A stretch of DNA of 64,000 nt from a virus. The notes beneath the pieces were generated by a model. That model was not told the DNA's origin, made no database searches, and saw only the letters and a list, made by a program, of their open reading frames with translations. Both the position numbers and the translations under genes were made by a program. Position 1 is the stretch's first letter; each line of letters begins with the position of its first letter. Positions 129 through 20,704 of the stretch are shown in pieces. The DNA lies in the IMG/VR virus record IMGVR_UViG_3300031576_000008, positions 1 through 64,000 of that record; one strand, 5' to 3'.

Positions 129-134
129 AATGTT

Positions 135-253
135 TGGTGCGGGCAATAGTGACCAAGGAAATGCCTGCGCGTCACAGGCTTGCGTCTACTGGCGCTTAGC
201 CTTTCGGCCAGCACTCCAGTTCCTAATGAAGTAACCTCGATCGGCAGCCCGCA
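135..253 (-). ncRNA. Y-RNA-like ncRNA (non-tRNA core), CCA-ended
   Basis: Terminal stem TGCGGGC/GCCCGCA+CCA and inner stem GATCGAGG/CCTTGGTC. Shares 5' motif GGGCTGCMG-N2-CG-N-GG-N-TWCTTC with 1-128 and 6905-7028. Confidence 0.5.
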
Positions 254-258
254 ATGTT

Positions 259-334
259 TGGTACCCTCGGCGGGGCTCGAACCCGCATGGGCCTGCTTAG
301 AAGGCAGGTGGCCATCCAATTGGCCGACGAGGGC
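259..334 (-). tRNA. tRNA-Arg(UCU)
   Basis: Cloverleaf, anticodon loop CTTCTAA, CCA. Confidence 0.9.
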
Positions 335-340
335 GAATGT

Positions 341-419
341 TTGCTCCAGAGGCAGGAGTCGAACCTGCGACCTTCCGGTTAACAGCCGGTTGCGGCAAAC
401 CGACAGCCGCCTCTCTGGA
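341..419 (-). tRNA. tRNA-Asn(GUU), atypical D arm, ends CAA
   Basis: TCCAGAG/CTCTGGA acceptor, loop CTGTTAA. Confidence 0.8.
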
Positions 420-420
420 A

Positions 421-494
421 TGGAGCTCACGCCCGGACTTGAACCGGGATCACCGCTTTACGAAAGCGGTAGACTGCCATTGTCCTACGCGAGC
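421..494 (-). tRNA. tRNA-Thr(CGU)
   Basis: Cloverleaf, loop TTCGTAA, CCA. Confidence 0.9.
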
Positions 495-500
495 GAATAT

Positions 501-576
501 TGGAGGGCATGGCGGGTGCCGACCCCGCTCATAGCCGCTTTGCAGGCGGCCGCGTTTGCCGATTCGCCACATGCCC
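501..576 (-). tRNA. tRNA-Cys(GCA), non-canonical T loop
   Basis: Loop CTGCAAA, U73, CCA, T loop GTCGGCA. Confidence 0.85.
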
Positions 577-577
577 A

Positions 578-673
578 TGGCGGAGGAGGCCGGTGCTGCC
601 CCGGCAACGCCCGTTTGTGCGAGCGGCACGTTTAGCAAACGTGTGCGGCCACCTAACTATCCGCGTCTCCTCC
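578..673 (-). tRNA. tRNA-Ser(GCU)
   Basis: Long variable arm, loop TTGCTAA, G73, CCA. Confidence 0.85.
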
Positions 674-1046
674 GTAATCCTTTGGCATAACGCCATTCGC
701 GTGTGCTGGTGTTGTGAGCTTCACGACATGTATCGCACCGACATCCGCAGGTGTACTTGTTTTGCGTACCATGCGGAGCGGCATTCCAGCGATCTTCGGC
801 GGTTTTCTTCTTGTGGCACTTTTTGCAAAGAACTTGACACTTCGCCAGCTCCGCTTCGCGCCGTGCTTTGCTCCATGACCAGACCTTATGATCGACCTTC
901 TTCAACGGGTCGATGTGATCCAGTTGAAGGTCATTCCATGAGCCGCACCGCCGACACGGTCCATGTCGCTGGAACCATTCCTCTCTGCGTCGCTGGAGCC
1001 ATTGTCCCTGATAAGAGCGTTGCCTCGTCTGGTCAGTATATGGCAT
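657..1046 (-). CDS. HNH endonuclease
   Basis: CxxC..LQLDH..CQVLCxxCH motif. Start reassigned to MPYTDQ because the upstream part of the ORF is tRNA. Confidence 0.85.
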   Translation of the reverse strand: MPYTDQTRQRSYQGQWLQRRREEWFQRHGPCRRCGSWNDLQLDHIDPLKKVDHKVWSWSKARREAELAKCQVLCKKCHKKKTAEDRWNAAPHGTQNKYTCGCRCDTCREAHNTSTREWRYAKGLRRRRG

Positions 1047-1081
1047 GCGGTTCATGTACAGCTTTTTCCGCCAGCTGTCAA

Positions 1082-1172
1082 TGGAGGAAGGGGCCGGATT
1101 CGAACCGGCGGAGCTTTTACGCCCTCTCGTTTTCCAAACGAGTACCCGCAGCCAAACCGGGACGTCCCTTCC
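1082..1172 (-). tRNA. tRNA-Ser(GGA)
   Basis: Long variable arm, loop TTGGAAA, CCA. Confidence 0.85.
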
Positions 1173-1198
1173 AGAAGTGCCCAACGCCTCCAAAGTTT

Positions 1199-1283
1199 TG
1201 GCGGAAGCCGGAGTATTCGAAACCCAGCCCGAAGGGCCCATCTGCTTTCAAGGCAGCGCCGTCACCTCGACGGTTCAGCTTCC
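1199..1283 (-). tRNA. tRNA-Ser(UGA)
   Basis: Long variable arm, loop CTTGAAA, CCA. Confidence 0.8.
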
Positions 1284-1585
1284 AGATACTCGACGATCAC
1301 ATCTCCGTGACACTTCTCGGGAGAGCAGAAGCAGCCAAGTGTCTTCCCTCGCAGCGTCTCGATCCGCTGCTTGAATCCTGAGACCGTCTTGAGTCTCTCA
1401 TAGAACCAGATCTTGTACTTCAGGATGACCTCTTCCCGGGTGCCATCCCGGCCGATCCGGAACGGATTGCCGAAGTAGCCGTAGGTAACTTTCTGCGTGA
1501 CCATGCCGGGTTCTACAACTGCTCCCGACCGGCCGATGTAGACGTCGTACTTCTCTTTCTTCACATGCACGACTCGTGTCTTCAT
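1262..1585 (-). CDS. DUF4326-family protein
   Basis: YDVYIGR..GNPF..LRGKTLGCFC..CHGDVI signature. Confidence 0.85.
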   Translation of the reverse strand: MKTRVVHVKKEKYDVYIGRSGAVVEPGMVTQKVTYGYFGNPFRIGRDGTREEVILKYKIWFYERLKTVSGFKQRIETLRGKTLGCFCSPEKCHGDVIVEYLEAEPSR

Positions 1586-1599
1586 GCCTTCTCCAAAGA

Positions 1600-1685
1600 T
1601 GGCGGAAGGTGGGAGATTCGAACTCCCAAGCCAGTGACGGCTCTCGCTTTCGAGACGAGGGGGCTTGCCAATGCCCAAACCTTCC
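1600..1685 (-). tRNA. tRNA-Ser(CGA)
   Basis: Long variable arm, loop CTCGAAA, CCA. Confidence 0.85.
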
Positions 1686-1858
1686 TAGAGCTTCCCGAGT
1701 TCCTCGAGATGCAGCGCCAGATTCTCGAGCTGGCGGACACGTTCGCGGGTGACCTTGAGCTCTTGACCGATCTCGTAGAGGGTCTTCCCCGCTCGTCGCA
1801 GCTTCAAGACGCGCTTCATCCGCCGGCGTGCCTCCGGCGTGATCCTGTCATATGCCAT
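1685..1858 (-). CDS. 57-aa stand-alone sigma-70 region 4 (HTH) protein
   Basis: Manual translation MAYDRITPEARRRMKRVLKLRRAGKTLYEIGQELKVTRERVRQLENLALHLEELGKL. GAGGA RBS. Not in the ORF track. Confidence 0.8.
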   Translation of the reverse strand: MAYDRITPEARRRMKRVLKLRRAGKTLYEIGQELKVTRERVRQLENLALHLEELGKL

Positions 1859-1872
1859 TGAATCCTCAAGAT

Positions 1873-1946
1873 TGGTGCCTGCGGGTGGAGTCGCACCACC
1901 GTCTGCTCCTTATGAGAGAGCCAGTCTGCTGTTGACCTACGCAGGC
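1873..1946 (-). tRNA. tRNA-CAU (elongator Met or Ile2)
   Basis: Loop CTCATAA, fully paired acceptor, CCA. Confidence 0.85.
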
Positions 1947-2323
1947 TTGTAGTTCTTGATCTCTTCCCGGATCCGCGCCTCGACACACTTCTCGGGACCC
2001 TTGCAGCTCCAGCTGCCGCCACACATGACGCAGATGGCGTCGTCAGCTCCGGCGTCGTCTAGAATCTTCAGGAGCTCATTGAGCTTCTTCTTCCAGAAGT
2101 CGCTCGGCGGCTTGTCCATCGGCTCCTTCGGATGGTCGATGATCTCCTGCTCGATCCTGTCGAAGCCGCAGTCCTTATGCGGACCGGACTGCAGGCAGAC
2201 CGGGCATTCGCCCTTCTCATCCATCCGCCGGTAGCAGCCTTCCCGAAGTTCGTAGAGCTTCGTCCTCCAGAAGTCGAATGGGCCCGGTCCAACGAGCTCG
2301 GTCTTGATGAATGGGCTGTCCAT
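1937..2323 (-). CDS. Hypothetical protein with internally duplicated Cys-rich module
   Basis: DFW-x-x-KL..CxxC..C..RI-x-x-EI present twice. GGAGG RBS. Confidence 0.7.
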   Translation of the reverse strand: MDSPFIKTELVGPGPFDFWRTKLYELREGCYRRMDEKGECPVCLQSGPHKDCGFDRIEQEIIDHPKEPMDKPPSDFWKKKLNELLKILDDAGADDAICVMCGGSWSCKGPEKCVEARIREEIKNYKPA

Positions 2324-2340
2324 GATTGCCTCCGAAGATT

Positions 2341-2414
2341 TGGAGCCCTCGGGGAGATTCGCACTCCCATCGCTTGGATACAAGCCAAGCAGACTGCTGT
2401 TGTCCTACGAGGGC
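2341..2414 (-). tRNA. tRNA-Thr(UGU)
   Basis: Loop CTTGTAT, CCA. Confidence 0.85.
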
Positions 2415-2418
2415 TGGA

Positions 2419-2793
2419 TTACCTCGGATGCTCCGCGTGATAGCGAGTCATCCGCACAGCCTGATGCGTCCGACATCTTTCACACCGGCATCCACGATCG
2501 TAGCCACCGCGAGTCCCATGGGTGATCGGACGCCATGCTTCTTGTGCTGTTTTCTCCTTATGGCACTCGGCACAGAGAACCTGACACTTTCGCAATTCCT
2601 CTTCTCTGCGCTTTCGCGACCAAGACCAGATTCGATGATTGACCTTGGTCTTTGGATCTCGATGATCGACTTGAAGATCATTCCAGCTTCCACATAGAAC
2701 ACATGACCCATTTTCTTGGAGCCATGCCGCTCTATTGGAAGCGGCCCTGAGCCGTTGGTACTCACGGTGCTTTGCCGGATCCTTGTAGGGCAT
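2419..2793 (-). CDS. HNH endonuclease (paralog of 657-1046)
   Basis: CVLCGSWNDLQVDH..CQVLCAECH, C-terminal HGT..GCRC. Confidence 0.85.
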   Translation of the reverse strand: MPYKDPAKHREYQRLRAASNRAAWLQENGSCVLCGSWNDLQVDHRDPKTKVNHRIWSWSRKRREEELRKCQVLCAECHKEKTAQEAWRPITHGTRGGYDRGCRCERCRTHQAVRMTRYHAEHPR

Positions 2794-2834
2794 GCTGGGT
2801 TATAGCACAACTTACGGCTCCATAGCCAGAAGAC

Positions 2835-2908
2835 TGGAGCCAACAGCGGGAGTCGAACCCGCGTTTCCGCTTTACCGAAGCGGTGTCTTGCCGTTAGACG
2901 ATGCTGGC
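2835..2908 (-). tRNA. tRNA-Thr(GGU)
   Basis: Loop TCGGTAA (C33), CCA. Confidence 0.85.
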
Positions 2909-2911
2909 GAG

Positions 2912-2985
2912 TGGTCCCCGCTGGCGGAGTTGAACCACCGTCTCGTGCATGTCACGCACGTGTTCTACCGCTGAACTAAGCGGGG
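2912..2985 (-). tRNA. tRNA-Val(GAC)
   Basis: Loop GTGACAT, CCA. Confidence 0.85.
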
Positions 2986-2986
2986 A

Positions 2987-3063
2987 TGGTCAGGGCACCG
3001 AGATTCGAACTCGGACTACCAGTCCCCCAGACTGGCGTGCTAACCATTGAACACTATGCCCTG
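2987..3063 (-). tRNA. tRNA-Pro(GGG)
   Basis: Loop CTGGGGG, C1-G72, CCA. Confidence 0.9.
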
Positions 3064-3221
3064 ATGTTCTTCGGAGGCGGAATCGGGGGGAAGCCCTTGG
3101 GGACCTTGCATACGATGGTCGCCCCGAGGGCCTTGGCGACTTCCTTCGGATCGATGCGCTCGGCTTTCGGGCCGATGTCGACGATCTTCGGATACGTCTT
3201 GCCGGTGTCCTTGATACTCAT
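3054..3221 (-). CDS. 55-aa hypothetical protein
   Basis: MSIKDTGKTYPK...PPPKNIRA*. AAGGA RBS and phage-like codon use. Confidence 0.6.
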   Translation of the reverse strand: MSIKDTGKTYPKIVDIGPKAERIDPKEVAKALGATIVCKVPKGFPPIPPPKNIRA

Positions 3222-3238
3222 GAGAATCCTTTCAGGAT

Positions 3239-3315
3239 TGGGGTAAGCGACGGGGATCGAACCCGCACCTCTTGGGCCACAACCAAGCGTGCAGAACCAC
3301 TACACCACGCCTACC
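3239..3315 (-). tRNA. tRNA-His(GUG) with encoded G-1
   Basis: Loop TTGTGGC, G-1:C73, CCA. Confidence 0.9.
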
Positions 3316-3326
3316 GTGTAAAAGAT

Positions 3327-3400
3327 TGGTGCGCCTCACTGGTTATGCTCCAGTGTCTGGCGGTTATCAGCCGCCTGTTCTTCTATTGAACTAGAGGCGC
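3327..3400 (-). tRNA. tRNA-Ile(GAU), non-canonical T loop
   Basis: Loop CTGATAA, T loop AGCATAA, CCA. Confidence 0.8.
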
Positions 3401-3401
3401 A

Positions 3402-3476
3402 TGGAGCGGCTGAGGGGACTTGAACCCCCACTATCCACCATGGCAAGGTGGTGCCCTACCATTGGGCTACAGCCGC
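3402..3476 (-). tRNA. tRNA-Gly(GCC)
   Basis: Loop TTGCCAT, U73, CCA. Confidence 0.9.
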
Positions 3477-3485
3477 ATGATTTTC

Positions 3486-3559
3486 TAGCTGGGGCAGAAG
3501 GATTCGCACCTTCACAACCGGGTTCAAGGCCCGGTGGGCTACTGTTACCCGATGCCCCA
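3486..3559 (-). tRNA. tRNA-Gln(UUG), ends CUA
   Basis: Loop CCTTGAA, U1-A72, G73. Confidence 0.8.
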
Positions 3560-3560
3560 G

Positions 3561-3648
3561 TGGTGCCGGAGAGAGGAATCGAACCTCCAAGGTCCAAAAG
3601 GACTACGGCTTTACAGGCCGCTGAGCCCACCTCCTGCTCAACTCCGGC
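3561..3648 (-). tRNA. tRNA-Tyr(GUA)
   Basis: Long variable arm, loop CTGTAAA, CCA. Confidence 0.85.
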
Positions 3649-3649
3649 A

Positions 3650-3675
3650 TGAGGAGACGACGGGATTTGCACCGT
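3650..3675 (-). pseudogene. tRNA 3' remnant (T loop plus acceptor strand)
   Basis: CGGTGCAAATCCCGTCGTCTCCTCA without a 5' half. Confidence 0.4.
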
Positions 3676-4172
3676 TAAGATTGGTGGACCGTGCGGGAAC
3701 CGCCCCCGCCTATGCCTGCTTGCAAAGCAGGTGAGACCCTATTGCCTCCCACGGCCCGTTGATGTGTTCTTTCTGCATGACAATTAGCACAAACCACCTC
3801 GCACTTTTTCATCTCTGCGCGGAGCGCTTTCTCTGTGGAGTTCCCGTGAGCAAAGAATGAGACATTTCCCAACTTCGTCCCATTCTCAGGCAAATGATCA
3901 AAGTGCATGACCCATGAAGAATACGACTTTCCGCAGTCAGCGCAGGGTCGTCGCTTCTCTTCATCTGCGATCCGCTGAAATCGTTGTCTTCTCTCCTGAT
4001 TATGAATGACAGATTGCCTGATGTGTTCCGCTCTGCTTCGAGGATTAGAATACCAGCGTTTCCAGTATTTCTGCTGACACTCTCGACAGCAGGAGTTCCT
4101 GCCCTTGCCCTTTCGGCTAAACTCTTTGACGAATTTCTTGCGATCGCATTTGCCGCATCGCTTTTTCTCCAC
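3675..4172 (-). CDS. HNH endonuclease
   Basis: CxxC N-terminus, CADCG..MHFDH..CEVVCANCH. Confidence 0.8.
   Translation of the reverse strand: MEKKRCGKCDRKKFVKEFSRKGKGRNSCCRECQQKYWKRWYSNPRSRAEHIRQSVIHNQERRQRFQRIADEEKRRPCADCGKSYSSWVMHFDHLPENGTKLGNVSFFAHGNSTEKALRAEMKKCEVVCANCHAERTHQRAVGGNRVSPALQAGIGGGGSRTVHQS
3682..3757 (-). tRNA. tRNA-Ala(UGC)
   Basis: G3:U70, loop TTTGCAA, CCA. Lies entirely inside the HNH ORF. Confidence 0.8.
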
Positions 4173-4244
4173 AAGACAAGCATATCATAGAGTTGCAGCC
4201 TTTAATGCGTGCAAGTCACGAATCCTTCTGTTGAACGACAGGCC

Positions 4245-4850
4245 CTAATTGACGATCTCGCACGCTGCGAACTTGACATGCCTCCATTTCTCGTTCAGCT
4301 TGGCCCGGTACTCGCTGTACTTGGATCTCCACACCGTCTCCTTGGAGACGTAGCGGAGCGACAGATGCTTGGCGTCCGCCTGCGGCACAACGATCTTGCA
4401 CTTCTTGACACCAGCCTCGATGCAGAAGTCCTCAACGCAGCAATGGAAGCTGTCGAAGGTCTTGTCATCGAAGCGCAGTCCGCTTTGCCGGCGGAAGAAG
4501 ACCGAACACGAGTCGAGCGTCGAGACTTCGGCGGGGCGTCCCTGCGAGAAGGCGTTCTCCCCCTTGATCGTCCGGCCATGCATGCCGGCAACCGACCCTT
4601 GGATGGCCGCCGCCGCGAAGATCGCGATCGCGCCGGGACCGAAGACCGTGTCGGCGTGGACGATGCCAAGCACGTCGCCGCGCGCATGGTCGATGTAGTA
4701 ATTCCCAATCTTGCCCAGTCCCCCGAAGATGCCGCTTGGGTTGGACACGAGAATCAGCTCATCAACGACTGGAATCACATGCTGGGACTGGAATTCCCCC
4801 AACTCCTTGCTGTTGGCAGCCAGCACGACCAAGCTGATGGTTGGCTTCAT
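4245..4850 (-). CDS. Glycosyltransferase-like protein (GT-A fold)
   Basis: ARGDVLGIVHAD motif, TLD..FDxxTFDSFH. Confidence 0.6.
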   Translation of the reverse strand: MKPTISLVVLAANSKELGEFQSQHVIPVVDELILVSNPSGIFGGLGKIGNYYIDHARGDVLGIVHADTVFGPGAIAIFAAAAIQGSVAGMHGRTIKGENAFSQGRPAEVSTLDSCSVFFRRQSGLRFDDKTFDSFHCCVEDFCIEAGVKKCKIVVPQADAKHLSLRYVSKETVWRSKYSEYRAKLNEKWRHVKFAACEIVN

Positions 4851-4856
4851 AGGTCG

Positions 4857-5582
4857 TCACCGGATGACCGGCCTCGACTTCTTGAGCGCGTCCATGAAGA
4901 CCTTGCGATAAGGATTCGCAGGATCGTTATGGATGCCCCATCCATTCTGCCGATTATCGTCGCTCTGGCGATTCCACCGGCCGGCACGTTTGGTCTCGAG
5001 AAACTCCGGCCCCATGTAATGGTAATGAAGGAGCTTGATGTCGGGTTGCATGCTCTCTTTGACTTTTCCACTGGTCTGGCACTTGTGGCTGCCGGGACCG
5101 AAGGTCACGTCGATGACGGGATTGAAGCACACCCGCTTCGCGTAAAACGCGTCGGGGAATCCCATCTTGCAATGGGTAAAGATGCTGGCATCCCGCTTTG
5201 GGAAGATGGGAGACACCATCTCGTACCCGTCGATCTTGGGGAAGGTGATGCCCCACGCTTTGTATGACTCCAGAAGAGGTGGCAGGCTTGGATAGTGGTA
5301 CAGGAACTCGTCCACATCCACGACCATCACCCAATCGGCCTTGCCACGGGACTCCATCCATGCGGTGTTCCGGATCTCCGTCAGCCGCCTCTCCACGTAC
5401 TTGCCGCCGGTATCGAAGACGATGCGCTTCGTCTTCGGATGGCCATCGATGATCTTTGCGGACTTGTCGGTGCTCTGGTTGTCGTAGATGACGATCTTCT
5501 CGGCGAACGAGCCGTAGTATTGCAGGAAGAAGGGGAGCATCTTCTCCTCGTTCCAGCAGACGGTGTAAACGTGGATGATCAT
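4857..5582 (-). CDS. Glycosyltransferase family 2
   Basis: WNEE..IYDNQSTD..DWVMVVDVDEF..LLHYHY. Confidence 0.85.
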   Translation of the reverse strand: MIIHVYTVCWNEEKMLPFFLQYYGSFAEKIVIYDNQSTDKSAKIIDGHPKTKRIVFDTGGKYVERRLTEIRNTAWMESRGKADWVMVVDVDEFLYHYPSLPPLLESYKAWGITFPKIDGYEMVSPIFPKRDASIFTHCKMGFPDAFYAKRVCFNPVIDVTFGPGSHKCQTSGKVKESMQPDIKLLHYHYMGPEFLETKRAGRWNRQSDDNRQNGWGIHNDPANPYRKVFMDALKKSRPVIR

Positions 5583-6173
5583 CTACTTGATCCACCAGCA
5601 GCATTCGTAGTTGCAGATCTCGATTTTTCTTTCTCCGGCCACTTCGGACACGGCCTTCTGTACGCCATCGGCCCAGAGGTCGTCGCCGACGATCCGCGCC
5701 TTGGGGAAGAGGGACAACGTCATCTCGATGTCGGCGCGGACGGATGCGTACTCGTGGTCGGCGTCGATGTAGACCAGATCCGGCATGATGTTGAGACTGC
5801 GGACCAAGCGGAGTCCCGAAATGGTGTTCATCCGCAGGGGGATGATCTGGTTGCGATATGCCCAGCAGCTTGCCAGAAATGTCTCATACAGGGCCGGGAG
5901 GTGCTTCCTCCACTCCTTGTCCTCGTGGCATGCCGCCGATCCAAGCCAGTGATCGATCGCGATGATGGCGGCCTTCGGCGCGGTCTTGGCAAGGAACCGG
6001 GTGGAGAGCCCAAGCCACGAGCCCAGCTCGACGATGACCTTGAACTTCGGCTTGATGATCGCGGTCAGGACTTCACGGTTGGCGACGCCAAACCAACCGT
6101 GGTTGGATTTTGGCACCAGCGGCGGCTTGGGAGGGAACGAGAATCTCCTCCTTAGTTCTGCTAGACCGTCCAT
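5583..6173 (-). CDS. Class I SAM methyltransferase (Methyltransf_24-like)
   Basis: VELGSWLGLST, DLVYIDADHEY..VGDD. Confidence 0.85.
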   Translation of the reverse strand: MDGLAELRRRFSFPPKPPLVPKSNHGWFGVANREVLTAIIKPKFKVIVELGSWLGLSTRFLAKTAPKAAIIAIDHWLGSAACHEDKEWRKHLPALYETFLASCWAYRNQIIPLRMNTISGLRLVRSLNIMPDLVYIDADHEYASVRADIEMTLSLFPKARIVGDDLWADGVQKAVSEVAGERKIEICNYECCWWIK

Positions 6174-6187
6174 GAAGTTATCTTACA

Positions 6188-6826
6188 ATGCCTTTCATGG
6201 ATAACGTCCTTCCTGCGCTGATCGACCAGCTGACGAAGACGCAGCCCCCGAAGCTTGTCGCCGACGTCGAGGGGATGATCTCCGCCCGGATCCAGACGCT
6301 TCTCAACCGGTGCGTCGCCGCTCTGCCGGCGACGGAGTCGTATCTCGAGATCGGCTGCTGGCAGGGAGCGTCGCTTATCTCCGCGCTCCTTGGCAACACC
6401 AAGGCCACCGCCCTCGCCTGTGACAATTTCGCCCAGTTCACGGAGGCGAATCCTAGGGACAAGTTCAAGGCGAATACCGCCCGGTATGCCGCCCGTCTTC
6501 CCAAGTTCACGTTCCACGAAGGAGACTGCTTCGAGCTCCCGAAGAAGCCGCTCTTCCCCAAGCCCGTCGGCATCTACTTCTACGACGGGGACCATTCGGA
6601 GATCAGCCAGATGCGGGCGCTCACGGAATTTCACACCGTCTTGGCCACGAACGTGGTCGTCATCGTGGACGACTGGAACTGGGACTACGTCCGCCGGGGG
6701 ACGTGGAAGGGCATCGACATCGTAAGGCCTAAGAACGTCTGGTTCCGCGACCTCCCGTCGAAGGGCAACTGCGACCTCGACGGCTTCTGGAATGGCATCG
6801 GCGCGTTCCATCTCGTGCTGCGCTAA
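6188..6826 (+). CDS. Class I SAM methyltransferase (Methyltransf_24-like), possible start 6197
   Basis: YLEIGCWQGAS, FYDGDH..IVDDWNW. Confidence 0.85.
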   Translation: MPFMDNVLPALIDQLTKTQPPKLVADVEGMISARIQTLLNRCVAALPATESYLEIGCWQGASLISALLGNTKATALACDNFAQFTEANPRDKFKANTARYAARLPKFTFHEGDCFELPKKPLFPKPVGIYFYDGDHSEISQMRALTEFHTVLATNVVVIVDDWNWDYVRRGTWKGIDIVRPKNVWFRDLPSKGNCDLDGFWNGIGAFHLVLR

Positions 6827-6827
6827 G

Positions 6828-6901
6828 TGGTGGACCCGAAGGGAATCGAACCCTCATCTGCCGATTGCGAACCGGCTGCTCTCCCGTTGAGCTACGGGCC
6901 C
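6828..6901 (-). tRNA. tRNA-Ala(CGC)
   Basis: G3:U70, loop TTCGCAA, CCA. Confidence 0.9.
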
Positions 6902-6904
6902 ATA

Positions 6905-7028
6905 TGGGGCAATTGTCGGTCACGGCCATTTAACGTGCTGCCATTACACCACGGCACCTTGCGGCACCGCCGGGACTCGAACCCGGACCTTTTCATTATG
7001 AGTGAAGTAGCCGCGACCTGCAGCCCCG
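6905..7028 (-). ncRNA. Y-RNA (YrlA)-like ncRNA with circularly permuted tRNA domain
   Basis: GGGGC/GCCCC and GGTCGCGGC/GCCGTGACC stems enclose a CAU arm, a T arm, an acceptor stem closed by a GCAA tetraloop, and then a D arm. Confidence 0.7.
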
Positions 7029-7034
7029 AATGTT

Positions 7035-7108
7035 TGGTGGACGCGGCGAGAGTCGCACTCGCAACTGCAGAATGCCATTCTGCTGTGATCCTGCTTCACC
7101 ACGCGCCC
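7035..7108 (-). tRNA. tRNA-Ala(GGC)
   Basis: G3:U70, loop ATGGCAT, CCA. Confidence 0.85.
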
Positions 7109-7169
7109 TATTGAACACCTGCCCGGGAGTTGCGATCCAGAGACCGCATTCAGCGGGCAGGGAGGAATT

Positions 7170-7244
7170 TGGTGGACGGTACAGGAATTGAACCTGTTCC
7201 TCCCGGTCTTCAGCCGGGCGCTCGACCATGTAAGCTAACCGTCC
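7170..7244 (-). tRNA. tRNA-Phe(GAA)
   Basis: Loop CTGAAGA, CCA. Confidence 0.9.
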
Positions 7245-7245
7245 G

Positions 7246-7322
7246 TGGTAGCGTAGGGTGGGAGTCAAACCCACTAGCTCCGGCTTATGAGACCGGCGAG
7301 GTCGTCGTGCCTCTCCCTCGCA
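7246..7322 (-). tRNA. tRNA-Met(CAU), initiator-like, atypical
   Basis: Loop CTCATAA, 1:72 mismatch, bulged acceptor. Confidence 0.65.
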
Positions 7323-7326
7323 AGAT

Positions 7327-7400
7327 TGGTAGCGGGCTACCGAGTCGCACGGTCACTCCAAGGTTATGAGCCTCGGCGAGGCACTCGCCTCAAACCCGCA
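7327..7400 (-). tRNA. tRNA-Met(CAU), initiator-like
   Basis: Loop CTCATAA, U1:U72 mismatch, CCA. Confidence 0.7.
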
Positions 7401-7409
7401 TCGTAATTT

Positions 7410-7483
7410 TGGCTGCCCCGGGAGGACTCGAACCTCCATCGCCTGATTCAGAGTCAGGAATGCTACCGTTACACCACAAGGCA
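7410..7483 (-). tRNA. tRNA-Gln(CUG)
   Basis: Loop CTCTGAA, CCA. Confidence 0.9.
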
Positions 7484-7486
7484 GAA

Positions 7487-7600
7487 TGGAGATGGAGGTC
7501 CCAAAGTGTCGGCTTTCGCCGCCGGTCTTTCTACTGCGATGCCTATCGCGATTCGGCACTGCGCGGGAACAGGCGACCGGACTACCACGACTCCATCTCC
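7487..7600 (-). ncRNA. Unknown structured ncRNA, CCA-ended
   Basis: 10-bp terminal stem GGAGATGGAG/CTCCATCTCC, inner CCGGTC/GACCGG, CGGC-GAAA-GCCG hairpin. Confidence 0.5.
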
Positions 7601-7606
7601 GAAGAT

Positions 7607-7685
7607 TGGCAGCGGTGACGGGACTCGCACCCGCTCTATCTCCTCGTTGACAACGAGGCGGCTCGTCTACTTTGCCATCACCGCT
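7607..7685 (-). tRNA. tRNA-Asp(GUC)
   Basis: Loop TTGTCAA, G73, CCA. Confidence 0.8.
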
Positions 7686-7690
7686 ATAAA

Positions 7691-7765
7691 TGGCAGGTCG
7701 TGCAGGGGTCGAACCCGCGCCTTCCGCTCTGGAGGCGGACGTGCTACCAGTAACACCTACGACCT
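7691..7765 (-). tRNA. tRNA-Trp(CCA)
   Basis: Loop CTCCAGA, G73, CCA. Confidence 0.85.
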
Positions 7766-7768
7766 GAA

Positions 7769-7876
7769 TGGGCCGCACCCTCCCGGATGCAGCCCCTGCA
7801 TCGCCTGCGGATGACGGGTTGTCGGCCGACCTTCAGCGAAGCTGCATGGTCTGCGCCTATCCGTCTTCTCCGGCCC
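7769..7876 (-). ncRNA. Unknown structured ncRNA, CCA-ended
   Basis: GGGCCG/CGGCCC-A terminal stem, GACC..CAGC-TTCG-CTG..GGTC arm, GATGCAG/CTGCATC hairpin. Confidence 0.4.
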
Positions 7877-7954
7877 TCGAACGAATCCTTGGGGATGGTT
7901 ACCCTATGTCCCTCATCGGGCGATTCGATCCTATTGAGGACCTATGGCGAGTAT

Positions 7955-8029
7955 TGGTGCGGGCGACCGGTAACGCTCCGGTTCTTCAACCTTGGGAAAG
8001 TCGCGTGCTAACTTTCACACTCCGCCCGC
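7955..8029 (-). tRNA. tRNA-Gly(CCC), atypical
   Basis: Loop TTCCCAA, T loop AGCGTTA, CCA. Confidence 0.75.
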
Positions 8030-8526
8030 TTGAGCCACTTCTTTACGGCGTTAAAGGATACGCCGAATTCTTTGGCGACATGATTGACGTTGGATTCAGC
8101 CACCATTCGCAGAAGCTCCGTTTTCGACGGGCGGATCGCTTTCCGCTGCCCAAGAGCGGTGCATTTTCTAGAACAGTACTGATTGTATCTACGCCTGATG
8201 ATGGAGAGCTTCCGATGGATTGCGGAACCGCATACTGCGCACTTCACTTCAATGGAGGCATGCCCAAGCTGATGCTGATGATGCATGGAATGCTCTCTAT
8301 TCGTGAGGAGCTTGAGATTTGCCGGACGGTTGTCCCTTTTGTTGTGGTTCTTATGGTGAACCACCTCATCCGGCAGCAAGTGCCTGCCAATCATGTCCTC
8401 CATCACCAGCCGATGTTCGTAGAACTTCTTGCCTTTGTTGTCAAAGTAGAAGAAGTAGCCCTCATTGACGTAAGGGCCACGACCTGCTCTAGACCATTGA
8501 CTACGAATCTTTTCGAGTGCATCCAT
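8008..8526 (-). CDS. HNH homing endonuclease (HNH_3) with C-terminal Zn ribbon and HTH
   Basis: YEHRLVME..VVHHKNHNKRDNRPANL. Confidence 0.9.
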   Translation of the reverse strand: MDALEKIRSQWSRAGRGPYVNEGYFFYFDNKGKKFYEHRLVMEDMIGRHLLPDEVVHHKNHNKRDNRPANLKLLTNREHSMHHQHQLGHASIEVKCAVCGSAIHRKLSIIRRRYNQYCSRKCTALGQRKAIRPSKTELLRMVAESNVNHVAKEFGVSFNAVKKWLKRAECES

Positions 8527-8600
8527 GGACCGGGTAGCGGGAATTGAACCCGCCCTTGAACTGTGGAAAAGTTCCGTGCTTGCCACCACACTCTACCCGG
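8526..8600 (-). tRNA. tRNA-Gly(UCC), atypical
   Basis: Loop TTTCCAC, U73, CCA. Confidence 0.7.
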
Positions 8601-8603
8601 ATA

Positions 8604-8659
8604 ATTGCACCCGCGTCAAGGCTTGGGAAGCCGGCGCACTGCTCTTGTGCTACGGCCGC
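8604..8659 (-). pseudogene. 3'-truncated tRNA-Gly(CCC)
   Basis: 5' acceptor strand, D arm, CTTCCCAA loop and start of T arm, with no 3' acceptor strand. Confidence 0.6.
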
Positions 8660-8812
8660 TAGTTCGTAGAATGGGAGCCGGACCCAAACCGTTCCCGGGT
8701 CTGGGTCCGGCCCGTTGCTCTTTCTCGACCAGCCCGATTGTCAGGGCGGCTGGCGTCTCACCGCCGGCCGCTGCTACTTGGGTGCCCTGCCGGGGCAGTC
8801 CAAGGTCCAACG

Positions 8813-8843
8813 AAAAACCCCGCGTTCTTGCGAGCGCGGGGTT
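8813..8843 (-). terminator. Intrinsic terminator (attenuator) upstream of tRNA array
   Basis: AACCCCGCGCTC-GCAA-GAACGCGGGG-TTTTT. Confidence 0.75.
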
Positions 8844-8867
8844 CTTTTTACTTCTCCGGGTCAGGCG

Positions 8868-9044
8868 CTACATCTTCACCCCGCGCTCGCGCGCCCACCC
8901 GGCCTCTCGATTCACCTGCTTCGTACCTTCGAGGGCCAAGGGGCGGACGATGTACGACGGCAGGTGCGCGAACATATCTGGACTGGAGGCGCTGGGTAGG
9001 CTGCACCTTGTCGCTACTTGGCGGGATGATCTGGACATGATCAC
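8868..9044 (-). CDS. Putative 58-aa attenuator leader peptide
   Basis: GGAGGT RBS 9 nt before GTG. The 3' end carries a 13-nt complement of the terminator 5' strand. Confidence 0.55.
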   Translation of the reverse strand: MIMSRSSRQVATRCSLPSASSPDMFAHLPSYIVRPLALEGTKQVNREAGWARERGVKM

Positions 9045-9071
9045 GGAACGCGCACCTCCGTAAGTAGAACA

Positions 9072-9100
9072 ACCGTAGCTGGTGAAAGGTTCGAAGTCAA
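9072..9100 (-). promoter_or_regulatory. Sigma-70-type promoter of leader/tRNA operon
   Basis: TTGACT-17-TACGGT. Confidence 0.55.
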
Positions 9101-9109
9101 GCAAGAAAT

Positions 9110-9523
9110 TTATTCAAGCTTGAGATTGAGCGCTTCCTTCAGCTGCTCGAGCACTTTCGGCGGGGTCACGTGATGGTATTCGCGACTGTGCTCATCGATG
9201 TTGTCGATCGCCAAGGCAAGCGCATCAGTCTTGGCCTTGATGACCTCCCGGGCGCGCTCAAGCAGCTTCTCGACATGCTTGGCCACCATCGGGCGCGCCA
9301 GCTCCAGATGCTCGGGGCGCACGCAAAGCTTGTTGCCGCAGGTGGCGCTCACGACCGTGCGCGGGGGAATGGGACCCTTGACGATCTCCCATGACGCACG
9401 GCGCGGATAGGTCGATCTTTCGCCCCAGCGAAGCGAACCGTATCCGTTCTTCCCAACGGGGCCGGTCCAGTTCCAGCAGGTATCGGTCTTCTCGACACGC
9501 TTCCAGAATTCGTCGGCATTCAT
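9110..9523 (-). CDS. HNH-endonuclease-like protein (degenerate)
   Basis: FWKRVEKTDTCWNWTG..GYG..CGNKLCVRPEHL. Expected catalytic His absent. Confidence 0.7.
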   Translation of the reverse strand: MNADEFWKRVEKTDTCWNWTGPVGKNGYGSLRWGERSTYPRRASWEIVKGPIPPRTVVSATCGNKLCVRPEHLELARPMVAKHVEKLLERAREVIKAKTDALALAIDNIDEHSREYHHVTPPKVLEQLKEALNLKLE

Positions 9524-9537
9524 GGTTTCTCCCAATG

Positions 9538-9570
9538 AAAAGGCCGGGACAGCAGAACCCTGTCCCGGCC
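9538..9570 (-). terminator. Intrinsic terminator
   Basis: GGCCGGGACAG..CTGTCCCGGCC-TTTT. Confidence 0.65.
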
Positions 9571-9615
9571 ATCCGACTGGCCGCTTGCCCAGCGACCGTC
9601 TCTTACCCGGCTTCA

Positions 9616-10134
9616 TCATGCCTCATCGGGCTTGGGAGTCAAGTCCAAGACCCGGCGGGCCAGCGCGGCCACGAAGCGCCATGTCGGCGGCTCCGTGTCG
9701 CGCCAAGGAGCCGGCACGATAGTCGTGTATCGGGACTTGGCAGTCGGATCAACCTCGACCAGTCCACATTCGATCGGCACGTCCTCGCGCTTGATGATGC
9801 CCGGCGGAGCGGCAAAGTAGTACTCGTTCGACAGCCGGAGCGCCGGCCGGCGCTTGTTGGGCTTCCGGAGCTCACGCTGGAAGTCCTCGCGGCTCACCTT
9901 GATCTCGTAGGACCTCCGGAACATCTTCGACGGATGCGGATGGATGACCCAGAGGTCGATCCATCCCTCCCCGTCCTTGCCGAAGCCGGTGCCGATCCGG
10001 AGATTCGGCAGGAGCAGGCAATGGGCGAATTGGTAGTGGTCGAGCAGGAGGGTCAGGACTTCATTGGAAGTCATGGGCATCTCTTTGGTCGCTGGGGGTG
10101 AATGGTCACTCCCTCCATACGGCTCGCTGTTCAC
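9616..10134 (-). CDS. MmcB-like PD-(D/E)xK nuclease
   Basis: IDLW..YEIKVSREDF..EYYFAAPPGII..CGL. Confidence 0.75.
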   Translation of the reverse strand: MNSEPYGGSDHSPPATKEMPMTSNEVLTLLLDHYQFAHCLLLPNLRIGTGFGKDGEGWIDLWVIHPHPSKMFRRSYEIKVSREDFQRELRKPNKRRPALRLSNEYYFAAPPGIIKREDVPIECGLVEVDPTAKSRYTTIVPAPWRDTEPPTWRFVAALARRVLDLTPKPDEA

Positions 10135-17225: not shown

Positions 17226-20200
17226 CTACTTGATGGGGCAGGATCCTCCACGACATTCCTTTTCCGCATCGGACACCTTGCCGAGCCCGCGTGCCCGCTC
17301 CTTCTCAAAATACTCCTCCGTGATCTTCTCGAACGGCAGCTGCTTGCGCCCGCTCAGTTCGGGCATCACGGTCGTGCCCTTGAGGTGGGGCAGATGGACG
17401 CGCAGAGCCTCTCGGAGCTCCCGAACGGTCACCTTCTTCGGATCGAAGTTGATCGTGTAGCTGATGCAGTTGTCGGCGAACTCGTTCTGGAGCATGGCCT
17501 GCACGGCGAGATGGTCCGAGATGGAGATCTCGGACTGCTCTTCGATGAGGGCCGTATCGACGGATCTCTTCTCACAAGATGCCACGAGTGGGTCCTTGCA
17601 CGGGAAGGACACCACAAGCGTGGCCTTCGTGTAGATCGACTTCTCGAGCGGATAACCCTCACGCCGGTACTTGGCGACATTCTTGTCGTTATCGGCGAGG
17701 TTCATCCGGCGCAGGAAATGGCGCGCGAAAATCGGCTGGCAGCCCGACATCGTGCCCGGAAGGTTCGAGATCGTCCCCGTCGGCGCGACGCAGGTCACCT
17801 TGATGGGCTCCGGGATCCGGAGCTTGAAGGAGTACTCGCGCGCCTCCTTCCGGCAGATGTCGTAGAAGCTGCGGAGGCGGTTGCGGATCTCCTTGTTGTG
17901 ATGGCTCTCGCTGAAGCGCACCCCCTGATAGATGAGCCACGAATGAAAACCGAAGAAACCAACGCCGATGCGCCGGTTCTTCGAGATGACTTCCTTCTGC
18001 TGGGGGCTGGCGATGTCGCCGAACGTCGCCCGGAGAAGGAATCGGGTCATGAGCCTGAAAGCCTCTCGAGCATCGGAATCGCGGCCGGCGAAACGCTCGA
18101 GATTGATGTGGCCGAGATTGCAGACATCCCACGGCGGCATGGCGATCTCGCCGCAAGGATTGGTCGTGAACGGGTACTCGCCTTCGCCGACGGCCGAAAG
18201 GCTCGAGTTCCAGAAGCCCGGCTCCCCGTCCTTGTGCATGCGCTCGGAGACGATCCTGAGCACCCGTTCAGCATGATGATCGCGCTTCCGGAGCGCCCGG
18301 AAAAAGGCGTCATCGACCTCCACGGAGACGTTCGTCGACCAGTGCTTCTTCTCGTCGCCGTCGCCATCGATCTTCTTGCAGTTGATGAAATCGAAGATGT
18401 CCGGATCGGCCCAGTACTTGAGGGACATGCGGGCCGAGTTGTGCACGAGCAGACCCCCGGCGACGAACTCGTTCTTGCCCTCCACCTCGATGTCATAGGT
18501 CTCGACGTTCCTCCCATCGGTCAATCCAACCACCTCGATCGGGATGAAATCGGTCTCCCCATACACATCCTCGAAGACGTCGTGATTCATCTGGCCGGTG
18601 CCGTCCCAGTGCGTCTTCCACGACTTGTTCGGCAGCTCGGCCTTGACCATCTCGTTCGAGAATCCATATCCCGCATGCGCCTTGACGCGCTCCGCCGGAT
18701 GCTTAGCGAGGAACGGCCCCACCCGATCCGTGAAGTCACGGAAGGACCGGCGTCCGACGAGCACCACATGCCACATTTCCTGCCACGACCCATCGGCTTC
18801 CCGATTGAGCTTCAGGCGCGTCGGGATGCCGAGCGATGCATAAAGCGCCTGCACCTCCTTGGCGAAGGACTTGTAGATGGTCGCCACGAGCAGGACCGGC
18901 CGGTTACCGGCCGCTCCGTCGGCGTCCATGAGCCCGGCGAGGAATCCAGCCCGCACTTCGGGCAGTCCCCGCCCGATGAAGTCGGGGACGACGATAGACT
19001 TCTTGGCCTCCTTGAACTTGGAGAAGTACCACGCCAGCTGCTTGGACTGGGCCCAGAGCTTGATGCACTTCTCGTCCTTCGAACTGTTGTCGATGACATT
19101 CACGCCCCAGCGTTCGACCTCCCGGCGGACGCGATCAACCGGATCGTTCTCACCGAGAGCGAAGGAAACGTGGGCATTGAAGCCGTTCTCCTCGAAATTC
19201 GGATAAACATACCCGTCACCACAGAAGAATCCGAGGAGCCACGCCGCATCTGCATCCAGTTCGGGGACGGTGATATCCTTGCAGGTCGTGCTGTTCTTGG
19301 GCTTCTGGTAGGACCACTCCGGGAATGACGTTTTCGTCCCTTCAAGCACGTTAGGCACGAAGACCAACCGGTCGCCCGGTTTCAGGTTCGATGCCTCGAC
19401 CCAGCAGTAGTTTCCCTCCACGTCCGACAAAACGGCCATCCTGTGATTGGGCGTGCATTCGAATTCGCCCATCTGAGTCACGATCCTGACCGTCTGCTGG
19501 ACACCCTGCGGGAAGACGGCCGAGACCCGGCGATACTCGCCATGGCTCGTCATCACTTCGTCGCCTACCGTCACGTCCTTGATCTTGATCAGGCCCTCGC
19601 GGGTGTGCACCGGCATCTCCTCCGGCAGGCAGCGGCGGATGTTCCCGCTGACGACGCAGGTGGCGATCTCATGATCGATCTGCATCATGTCGGTCGATGA
19701 GAGCTTCTGGCCGACCTTGGAATTGAGGATGCCATTCACCCGGATGAGCATCTCAAGGAGCGGCGTAGGACCGCTGGAGACGCCGCCGAAGCTCTTGAGA
19801 AGCGCCCCGCGCTCCCGGAGCGGGGTGATGTCGATGACGAGCGGCATGTCACGGCCGTCCCATGCGCCCTTGAGCACCTCGGCGAGCGACCCGCACCAGC
19901 CCTCACGGCTGTCGTCCACGACGTACCGGTCGCGGGTGAGATGATCGTACTTCTTGGAGAGGTGCCGTTTGAACTCCTCGATGTTCGGATGTGAGGGATT
20001 GCAGACGATGTGCAGCTCGACCTTCGAGAAGACCGGCGGATACATCCCGATGTACTTGTTGGAGTAATTGCTGCCGACCCCGCCGCCCTTCATGAGCTCG
20101 TCGAAGCTGAAGATGAAATGGAGCGTCAGGTCCTTGCGGGAGAATCCGGCGCTGTGACAATTTGCGAGATACTGCCGGCCGGGAACACCGGTGGCCCAGA

Positions 20201-20645: not shown

Positions 20646-20674
20646 AGACTAAAACGCCATTCACCTTTTGTCAA
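20646..20674 (-). promoter_or_regulatory. Sigma-70-type promoter for nrdJ
   Basis: TTGACA-17-TAGTCT. Confidence 0.65.
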
Positions 20675-20704
20675 GTTAGATTCTCTCGTATAGAATGAGA
20701 TTCG

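What the first reader, a model, noticed from the sequence alone, without database searches (positions are those of the whole stretch)
8813..9100. Candidate translation-sensing attenuator that gates the whole phage tRNA array
Seen on the minus strand, in order: promoter TTGACT-17-TACGGT (9100-9072), GGAGGT RBS, a 58-codon ORF (9044-8868), a 24-nt gap, a terminator hairpin with U tract (8843-8813), and then the tRNA array. The last codons of the ORF (8878-8890) are a perfect 13-nt complement of the terminator 5' strand (8830-8842). This antiterminator helix is longer than, and mutually exclusive with, the terminator stem. The peptide contains all 20 amino acids and 39 different sense codons, including AGA, AGG, CGA, CTA, TCA, GTA, ACA and CCA, which are scarce in this phage's core genes. 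Established: in trp/his-type attenuation, a ribosome reaching the stop masks the antiterminator and transcription terminates. Inference: stalling on any depleted or cleaved host tRNA would cause read-through, making this a general tRNA-damage sensor that induces replacement tRNAs. Caveat: 39 codons out of 58 is also about what random sequence gives, so the geometry is the stronger evidence.
Basis: partly seen in the sequence, partly recalled or inferred. Interest (0 to 1): 0.88.

Follow-up and report, generated by a model that had tools for sequence, protein, structure and literature searches.

The report
Switchable terminator before phage tRNA genes
Just upstream of this orphan phage's tRNA genes lies a real transcription stop signal with a built-in, statistically non-random competing RNA helix that overlaps the end of a 58-codon reading frame; it looks like a translation-sensing on/off switch, but nothing yet shows that the frame is translated or that the switch controls every tRNA gene.

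Summary
OBSERVATION: confirmed at the stated coordinates, minus strand.
- T2 (8843-8813) is a canonical intrinsic terminator, about -20.6 kcal/mol.
- 8890-8878 is a perfect 13-nt complement of 8842-8830. This is not chance: no 11-mer or longer of the motif occurs elsewhere in 2x106 kb; local shuffle P=7e-5; the other 15 strong terminators have at most 7 nt.
- An upstream segment (8966-8934) can sequester the antiterminator arm, which gives a trp-like four-segment layout.

THE ORF: ambiguous.
- No homolog in two very large protein libraries.
- Codons 1-22 look non-genic.
- Codons 23-58 look translated in this frame (about 0.3% of non-coding windows score as high).
- 39 distinct codons and all 20 amino acids put it in the top 2-4% for this genome.

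WEAK POINTS:
- The promoter matches only 8 of 12 positions, one of 129 such sites.
- ORF codons do not mirror the phage tRNA set.
- A plus-strand methyltransferase gene sits inside the array.
- The phage has no usable relatives, so conservation could not be tested.

VERDICT: most likely a ribosome-coupled, whiB7/trp-style attenuator in front of the proximal tRNA block (about 0.37). "General tRNA-damage sensor for the whole array" remains speculative.

This scan has noted similar leader/terminator units before tRNA arrays in other phages. I treated those notes as unverified leads.

The parts
9072..9100 (-). Promoter-like site TTGACT-17-TACGGT (weak)
   Evidence: Read. It matches 8 of 12 positions with a -10 hexamer of only 3/6, and is one of 129 such sites in the genome. 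It falls below the threshold of the consensus scan. It sits in a 49% GC stretch with no coding signal, directly after the HNH stop codon.
9054..9059 (-). Shine-Dalgarno GGAGGT, 9 nt before GTG 9044
   Evidence: Part of it and the GUG are predicted to lie in a local 8-bp hairpin of -8.6 kcal/mol. GGAGG occurs 368 times on both strands of the genome, 108 of them with a start codon 4-10 nt after.
8868..9044 (-). 58-codon leader ORF (ORF58), stop TAG 8870-8868
   Evidence: No Pfam or PHROG hit. No homolog and no atlas look-alike. Codons 1-22 score -0.87 per codon and codons 23-58 score +0.48 per codon.
8934..8966 (-). Region 1: predicted partner that sequesters the antiterminator arm (imperfect hairpin with 8904-8877)
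   Evidence: Pair list from the MFE fold. Region 2 is about 80% paired before region 3 is transcribed. This is a prediction only.
8878..8890 (-). Region 2: antiterminator 5' arm, ORF codons 52-56
   Evidence: Exact 13-nt complement of 8842-8830. It is unique in the genome. Shuffle P=7e-5.
8830..8842 (-). Region 3: shared strand (antiterminator 3' arm, which is the terminator 5' arm plus half of the loop)
8813..8843 (-). Terminator T2: hairpin 8843-8816 plus U tract 8817-8813; also a terminator on the plus strand
   Evidence: Energy is -20.6 kcal/mol on the minus strand and -22.7 kcal/mol on the plus strand.
8601..8812 (-). 212-nt structured spacer between T2 and the first tRNA
   Evidence: Minus-strand folding z-score is -3.3 against -2.3 for the plus strand. 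Two long hairpins lack U tracts. The only promoter-like site (8619-8590) has its -10 inside the tRNA.
8526..8600 (-). tRNA-Gly(UCC), first gene of the array
   Evidence: ARAGORN and Rfam at 50.3 bits.
9110..9523 (-). HNH homing-endonuclease gene directly upstream (true start ATG 9523)
   Evidence: Pfam HNH_3 and PHROG HNH families match from residue about 31 of the long ORF. An RBS and ATG lie after terminator T1. Codon score is 0.50.
9535..9570 (-). Terminator T1 (11-bp stem plus TTTTCATT) between the 172-aa gene and the HNH gene
   Evidence: -25.2 kcal/mol. It has no upstream competing helix (longest complement 5 nt).

Best explanation
The element is a ribosome-coupled transcription attenuator, a leader ORF plus an RNA switch. 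It lies between an HNH endonuclease gene and the first tRNA of the phage's tRNA region.

Proposed mechanism. RNA made from the weak site at about 9100, or by read-through from upstream, carries four segments:
- region 1 at 8966-8934
- region 2 at 8890-8878
- region 3 at 8842-8830
- region 4 at 8827-8816

Pairing 3:4 forms terminator T2. Pairing 2:3 is a stronger 13-bp antiterminator. Pairing 1:2 keeps region 2 occupied in naked RNA.

A ribosome that translates ORF58 briskly reaches codons 48 to the stop and covers region 2, so T2 forms and transcription stops near 8810. A ribosome that lags or stalls over region 1 (A site at roughly codons 23-47) leaves region 2 free to capture region 3 as it emerges. 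The polymerase then reads on into tRNA-Gly and the genes behind it. The net effect is more tRNA transcription when decoding is slow. This is the logic of the trp leader and of the whiB7 uORF.

Shown: the terminator, the non-random competing helix, and the position of the ORF relative to them.
Inferred: translation of the ORF, the kinetic outcome, and which downstream genes depend on it.
For: - T2 is a canonical terminator.
- The 13-nt complement is unique in the genome and an outlier among terminators.
- The antiterminator helix (-29 to -32 kcal/mol) is more stable than T2 (-20.6 kcal/mol). At transcript lengths 8836-8820 it has pairing probability 0.98-1.0.
- The full leader has two near-isoenergetic folds: 1:2 plus terminator at -108.8 and antiterminator at -108.4 kcal/mol.
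- Estimated barriers suggest a kinetically decided switch: about 10 kcal/mol for 1:2 to 2:3, and about 21 kcal/mol for antiterminator to terminator.
- A ribosome footprint at codons 48 to the stop excludes the antiterminator.
- GGAGGT lies 9 nt before GTG.
- Codons 23-58 score +0.48 per codon in this frame only. Just 0.4% of off-frame windows and 0.3% of non-coding windows reach that value.
- Codon diversity and amino-acid completeness are in the top 1.6-3.7%.
- The minus-strand RNA is more structured than shuffles (z -2.1 to -3.8), while the plus strand of the ORF part is not.
- T2 is the only strong minus-strand terminator between 9543 and the left end of the genome.
- The same logic is established for whiB7 (PMC10274678).
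Against:
- ORF58 has no homolog in 5.8 billion or 1.8 billion proteins. It is absent from the gene calls held for this genome, although a neighbouring gene of the same contig is present there.
- Codons 1-22 score -0.87 per codon, lower than 99.8% of real coding windows.
- Three of the six frames are open across this stretch, so the ORF alone means little.
- SD and GUG are predicted to lie in a -8.6 kcal/mol hairpin.
- The promoter is not distinctive.
- With a ribosome mask upstream of codon 47, the antiterminator and terminator stay within about 4 kcal/mol of each other, so thermodynamics does not predict the switch.
- There is no run of regulatory codons and no match between ORF codons and array tRNAs: 35 of 58 covered against a gene mean of 37.5.
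- No relatives are available to test conservation or covariation.
Confidence: 0.37

Rival explanations
1. T2 is an ordinary, bidirectional intrinsic terminator. It closes the HNH and small-ORF cassette and insulates it from the tRNA region. ORF58 is either a small orphan gene or the decayed 3' remnant of one. The 13-nt complement has no regulatory role. The tRNAs are transcribed from other promoters or by leak-through.
For: - Small genes followed by terminators are the rule in phage genomes, and small real genes are interleaved with tRNAs elsewhere in this array.
- A 24-nt gap between stop codon and hairpin is typical.
- The hairpin works on both strands.
- The split codon signal fits a gene remnant: the 5' half is non-genic and the 3' half is genic, while another frame scores +0.28 in the 5' half.
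- HNH genes are mobile and could have disrupted a gene.
- The promoter is not distinctive.
Against: - It leaves unexplained a perfect 13-nt complement with chance of about 1e-5 to 7e-5, which none of the other 15 strong terminators has.
- The peptide resembles no protein family.
- No convincing promoter lies between T2 and tRNA-Gly.
Confidence: 0.28
2. The terminator is conditional, but the control does not run through translation of ORF58. One option is a passive "leaky terminator": the 2:3 helix sets a fixed fraction of read-through from upstream transcription. The other is a switch set by a phage or host RNA-binding protein, a small RNA, or polymerase speed.
For: - The competing helix is real and stronger than T2.
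- The leader RNA is unusually structured on the minus strand.
- Equilibrium folds are balanced within 0.4 kcal/mol.
- Evidence that the ORF is translated is weak.
Against: - No Rfam family reaches threshold, and no T-box, riboswitch or known protein-binding leader is listed even at E up to 10. The sub-threshold Thr and Leu leader hits cover only the hairpin.
- No candidate binding motif or repeat was seen.
- The stop codon lies 8 nt after region 2, and the 3' half shows a coding-like signal in that frame. This model would have to treat both as coincidences.
Confidence: 0.2
3. One reading: a pan-amino-acid sensor of tRNA damage. A stall at any codon turns on the entire tRNA array so as to replace depleted or cleaved host tRNAs.
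For: - All 20 amino acids and 39 distinct codons, which puts the ORF in the top 1.6-3.7%.
- No other strong minus-strand terminator lies inside the array.
- The attenuator geometry described under the best explanation.
Against: - The rare codons cluster in codons 5-22, upstream of region 1. A stall there should leave 1:2 intact and favour termination.
- 23 of 58 codons are read by no array tRNA, and coverage is not enriched.
- A plus-strand gene is embedded in the array at 6188-6826.
- The diversity statistics are post hoc.
Confidence: 0.1

Closest known systems
Leader-peptide transcription attenuators of enterobacterial amino-acid operons (trpL, hisL, leuL, thrL, pheL, ilv leaders); textbook knowledge, not tested against a model here
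   Same: - A short ORF early in the transcript.
- Four segments able to form 1:2, 2:3 (antiterminator) and 3:4 (intrinsic terminator).
- A ribosome at the end of the ORF masks segment 2.
   Different: - No run of codons for one amino acid.
- The ORF is longer (58 codons).
- The stop codon lies after segment 2, not before it.
- The downstream genes are tRNAs in a phage, not biosynthetic enzymes.
- Rfam leader models match only the terminator hairpin, far below threshold.
whiB7 / wblC uORF-mediated attenuator of Actinobacteria (PMC10274678)
   Same: A general sensor of translation efficiency. Efficient uORF translation lets a rho-independent terminator form. Inefficient translation lets an antiterminator form and gives read-through. 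Responsiveness depends on the amino-acid content of the uORF, whose sequence varies between species.
   Different: - It regulates a transcription factor with positive feedback, not tRNA genes.
- It is a cellular element, not a phage one.
- Its uORF is enriched in alanine, whereas this ORF contains all 20 amino acids.
- There is no sequence relationship.
Anabaena trn operon: a long tRNA array that is silent until translational stress (PMC8421152; repressor TrcR, PMC10272220)
   Same: An accessory array of tRNA genes whose transcription is coupled to the state of translation.
   Different: - Control there is by a ribbon-helix-helix repressor acting at the promoter, not by an attenuator.
- It is carried on a cellular plasmid, not a phage.
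Plain bidirectional intrinsic terminators
   Same: A GC-rich hairpin flanked by an A tract and a T tract. Two other such pairs occur in this genome, at 75.9 kb and 105.0 kb.
   Different: Those terminators have no upstream competing helix (5-7 nt at most, against 13 nt here).

Membership tests
Leader-peptide (ribosome-mediated) transcription attenuator | Intrinsic terminator between the leader and the regulated genes | tested here: met
   Hairpin at 8843-8816 plus U5, -20.6 kcal/mol. It lies 212 nt before tRNA-Gly.
Leader-peptide (ribosome-mediated) transcription attenuator | Antiterminator helix that shares a strand with the terminator and excludes it | tested here: met
   Perfect 13-bp helix between 8890-8878 and 8842-8830, -29 to -32 kcal/mol. 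Shuffle P=7e-5, and the motif is unique in the genome.
Leader-peptide (ribosome-mediated) transcription attenuator | Short ORF with a ribosome-binding site, placed so that ribosome position decides which helix forms | tested here: inconclusive
   The geometry fits: SD, then GTG, with the stop 8 nt after region 2, and codons 48 to the stop mask region 2. The codon signal is split. There is no homolog and no expression data.
Leader-peptide (ribosome-mediated) transcription attenuator | Segment 1 that pairs with segment 2 (protector or pause hairpin) | tested here: inconclusive
   It is predicted, pairing 8966-8934 with 8904-8877. The z-score of 8845-8966 is only -2.4. No covariation data exist.
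Leader-peptide (ribosome-mediated) transcription attenuator | Clustered regulatory codons for the end product of the operon | tested here: not met
   There is no codon run, and all 20 amino acids are present. Codons served by the array tRNAs are not enriched, at 35 of 58 against a mean of 37.5.
Leader-peptide (ribosome-mediated) transcription attenuator | Conservation of the ORF frame and of the alternative pairings in relatives | not testable with these tools
whiB7-type uORF attenuator | Efficient uORF translation gives termination; impaired translation gives read-through | not testable with these tools
   The geometry is compatible. The property is defined experimentally in PMC10274678.
T-box riboswitch | Match to the T-box leader model (Stem I/specifier, T-box bulge in the antiterminator) | tested here: not met
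   RF00230 is not listed even at E up to 10. The antiterminator is a continuous 13-bp helix with no 7-nt bulge.
Intrinsic (rho-independent) terminator | GC-rich hairpin immediately followed by a U tract | tested here: met

The most novel reading that the evidence does not exclude
The phage wires transcription of its tRNA genes to a pan-amino-acid "test" ORF. Whenever ribosomes decode slowly, the antiterminator wins and the phage makes more of its own tRNAs. Slow decoding could come from amino-acid or tRNA shortage, or from tRNA cleavage by host anticodon nucleases. This would be a virus-encoded feedback sensor of translation capacity. I found no publication describing such control of tRNA genes.
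Probability: 0.13. Interest if true: 0.85.

Novelty: new variant of a known kind. Interest (0 to 1): 0.55.

Why it matters
Phage tRNA arrays are usually discussed as codon-usage helpers or as counter-measures to host tRNA-cleaving defences. How their expression is controlled is largely unknown.

A leader-ORF attenuator in front of them would mean the phage measures translation and responds by making tRNA. That would carry a classic bacterial amino-acid-operon mechanism over to RNA genes and to viruses. It would also give a compact, portable, translation-sensing regulatory part.

Here the RNA-switch geometry is solid, but the link to translation rests on inference. The value of this locus is therefore as a clearly testable candidate, not as a demonstrated case.

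Tried and rejected
COMPARATIVE GENOMICS (no usable relative found)
- blastn of 8400-9700 against INPHARED found nothing. blastn of 1-8000 gave only short hits of 70-73% identity lying on an HNH endonuclease gene in the mycobacteriophage records.
- tblastn with the 172-aa neighbour, the RNR and the DnaE-like polymerase gave at most 45%, 46% and 32% identity.
- IMG/VR scans with ORF58, the 172-aa protein and the 443-aa protein returned one chance hit in an AT-rich jumbo phage (L001) and two remote loci without tRNAs.
- A metagenome scan with a 15-sequence profile of the 172-aa family returned 80 loci, all at most 55% identical and none syntenic with a tRNA array.
- Bradyrhizobium phage BDU-MI-1, which holds the most identical (41.9%) tblastn match to the 172-aa protein, is T5-like and not syntenic.
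- The genome search does not draw relatives for a virus record.

TOOLS UNAVAILABLE

PROTEIN-LEVEL SEARCHES FOR ORF58 (all blank)
- Pfam, PHROGs, a 5.8-billion-protein word search, a 1.84-billion-protein HMMER scan, and the ESM atlas.

IDEAS CONSIDERED AND DROPPED
- T-box riboswitch. The stretch GGGUGG...GCG just upstream resembles the T-box motif, but there is no Rfam hit and no bulged antiterminator.
- tRNA remnant or group I intron in 9109-8845. No Rfam hit.
- Duplication of the terminator's 3' arm as the origin of the complement. Only 8 nt are shared as a direct repeat, and the other 5 nt pair with the loop.
- The \"codon mirror\" idea from earlier scan notes. It was tested here and is negative.

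LIMITS OF THE FOLDING TESTS
- Thermodynamic folding with a ribosome mask does not discriminate between stall positions upstream of codon 47.
- The findpath barriers are rough upper bounds.

Full report
**Context**

The window is the first 64 kb of a single 105,993-bp phage contig with 59.7% GC. The left 9 kb carries at least 22 tRNA genes on the minus strand. That count rises to 29 with relaxed ARAGORN settings, and Rfam adds one clear extra tRNA at 7038-7108. The tRNAs are interleaved with small genes and HNH endonucleases. Upstream on the same strand lies a nucleotide-metabolism and replication module.

The order immediately upstream of the finding, on the minus strand, is:
- a 172-aa gene (PHROG 5429) ending at 9616
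- a strong terminator T1 at 9570-9535
- an HNH gene whose real start is ATG 9523, ending at 9110
- the element under study
- a 212-nt structured spacer
- tRNA-Gly(UCC) at 8600-8526

**Observation**

T2 has a 9-bp GC-rich stem, a C.A mismatch, 2 bp and a GCAA loop, followed by U5, at -20.6 kcal/mol. On the plus strand the mismatch becomes G.U, so the hairpin is bidirectional.

The segment 8890-8878 is the exact complement of 8842-8830. Three tests show this is not chance:
- No 11-mer or longer of the required motif occurs elsewhere on either strand of the genome. Counts elsewhere are 24 for 9-mers, 4 for 10-mers and 0 for 11-mers, which extrapolates to about 1e-5 for a 13-mer in a 120-nt window.
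- A conservative local dinucleotide shuffle gives 14 of 200,000.
- Among 16 strong terminator-like hairpins in the genome, this one has 13 nt of upstream complement and the rest have at most 7.

I take the competing helix to be a selected feature.

**RNA switch**

The 2:3 helix is worth -29 to -32 kcal/mol against -20.6 for T2. It is chosen in the MFE of 9065-8800. There is also a region 1: 8966-8934 pairs imperfectly with 8904-8877. As a result, region 2 is about 80% paired before region 3 is transcribed.

The complete leader has two folds within 0.4 kcal/mol of each other: 1:2 plus terminator, and antiterminator.

Rough path barriers are about 10 kcal/mol for 1:2 to 2:3, and about 21 kcal/mol for antiterminator to terminator. 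The outcome should therefore be decided kinetically, by whether region 2 is free when region 3 emerges.

Minus-strand RNA of the ORF part is more structured than shuffles (z -2.1 to -2.5), and the plus strand is not (-0.3 to -0.8).

This is the four-segment layout of trp-type attenuators.

**Is the ORF translated?**

In favour:
- GGAGGT lies 9 nt before GTG.
- The stop lies 8 nt after region 2, so a ribosome with its A site at codons 48 to the stop necessarily blocks the antiterminator.
- Codons 23-58 score +0.48 per codon with a codon model trained on this phage's long genes. Real small genes in the array score 0.5-0.7. Only 0.4% of off-frame windows and 3 of 1120 windows from unannotated stretches reach this value, and no other frame of that segment is positive.

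Against:
- Codons 1-22 score -0.87, below 99.8% of real coding windows. Nine of them are rare codons.
- Three of the six frames are open here.
- SD and GUG sit in a -8.6 kcal/mol hairpin.
- The peptide matches nothing in Pfam, PHROGs, two very large protein libraries or the ESM atlas.
- The gene calls for this contig held in the protein collection do not include it, although they include its neighbour.

A leader peptide needs neither homologs nor good codons, so these negatives weaken the ORF but do not kill it.

The peptide does contain all 20 amino acids and 39 distinct codons. These are post hoc statistics.

**Claims that go beyond the evidence**

- Promoter. It matches 8 of 12 positions and is one of 129 equal matches. 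Transcription may equally enter from upstream through T1.
- "Any stall gives read-through". The rare codons are concentrated upstream of region 1, where a stalled ribosome would leave 1:2 intact. With a ribosome mask anywhere upstream of codon 47, the two states stay within about 4 kcal/mol.
- "Induces replacement tRNAs". 23 of the 58 codons (all Leu, Glu and Lys, most Arg) are not read by any tRNA of the array. Coverage is 35 of 58, no higher than in ordinary genes, where the mean is 37.5.
- "Gates the whole array". In favour, T2 is the only strong minus-strand terminator from 9543 to the left end, and σ70-like sites inside the array are few. Against, a plus-strand methyltransferase gene (6188-6826, codon score 0.64, Pfam Methyltransf_24) is embedded in the array. 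It is divergent from a minus-strand paralog starting at 6173. That implies other promoters, and at the least antisense conflict. T2 can safely be linked only to the proximal block, 8600-6828.

**Comparison with known systems**

The mechanism I favour works like the trp/his/leu leaders. In its lack of amino-acid specificity it works more like the whiB7 uORF attenuator. There, efficient uORF translation allows a rho-independent terminator and impaired translation allows an antiterminator (PMC10274678).

The only tRNA array known to me from the library that responds to translational stress is the Anabaena trn operon. It is controlled by a repressor, TrcR, and not by attenuation (PMC8421152, PMC10272220).

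Two full-text searches found no paper on attenuators before phage tRNA genes.

Membership in the enterobacterial leader families fails on the regulatory-codon criterion. A T-box is excluded.

**Earlier notes of this scan**

A word search returned many notes, from other genomes, of "leader-peptide attenuator gating a phage tRNA array". I used them only as leads. They pointed me to the whiB7 and Anabaena papers and to the codon-mirror test, which is negative here. They are not independent evidence for this locus.

**Verdict**

My estimates are:
- ribosome-coupled attenuator in front of the proximal tRNA block: about 0.37
- ordinary terminator of a small-gene or remnant cassette: about 0.28
- conditional or leaky terminator not driven by ORF58 translation: about 0.20
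- the full "pan-tRNA-damage sensor for the whole array" reading: about 0.1

The decisive tests are therefore experimental: Term-seq, Ribo-seq, and reporter mutants that separate the trp-like model from the two-state model.

Noticed in passing
window 9535-9570 (-) and 9615-9642 (-): A strong terminator T1 (11-bp stem, -25 kcal/mol) sits between the 172-aa gene and the HNH gene. A 9/12 promoter-like site (TTGACT-16-CATGAT) lies just upstream of it. The HNH gene's real start is ATG 9523, not 9619. HNH expression therefore seems to depend on read-through of T1.
   Followed up: partly
window 6188-6826 (+) and 5583-6173 (-): Two paralogous Methyltransf_24 genes are arranged divergently, with starts 15 nt apart, in the middle of the minus-strand tRNA array. 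The stop of the plus-strand gene abuts tRNA-Ala (6828-6901). A 9/12 promoter-like site at 6162-6189 (+) fits the plus-strand gene.
   Followed up: partly
window 8601-8812 (-): The spacer between T2 and the first tRNA is highly structured on the minus strand (z = -3.3). It has a 13-bp hairpin at about 8722-8688 and a 10-bp hairpin at about 8771-8746, neither followed by a U tract. It may be a processing or stability element, or another non-tRNA RNA.
   Followed up: no
window 7035-7108, 1199-1283, 3682-3757, 7251-7322, 7331-7399, 7959-8032, 6961-7027 (-): Default ARAGORN settings miss several additional tRNA-like genes. Ala-GGC at 7035-7108 is solid (Rfam 53.5 bits). Ser-UGA, Ala-UGC, three CAU species and Gly-CCC appear only at a relaxed threshold. 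Gly-CCC overlaps the 3' end of the HNH gene at 8008-8535.
   Followed up: partly
window 17226-20612 (-): The 1128-aa ribonucleotide reductase aligns to phage RNRs in two pieces that cover only about 60% of it. That suggests an intein or another large insertion.
   Followed up: no
genome 82,658-82,944 (outside the window): Within stretches not covered by my crude gene map, the only windows that score higher on the codon model than the 3' half of ORF58 lie here. This is probably an unrecognised small gene.
   Followed up: no
window 20660-20700 and 55900-56010: The best σ70-like sites in the window share a TTGACA-17-TAGnnT form (TAGAAT, TAGACT, TAGTCT). They fall in divergent intergenic regions, which hints at the promoter type the phage actually uses. 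The 9100 site, with -10 TACGGT, does not fit this form.
   Followed up: no
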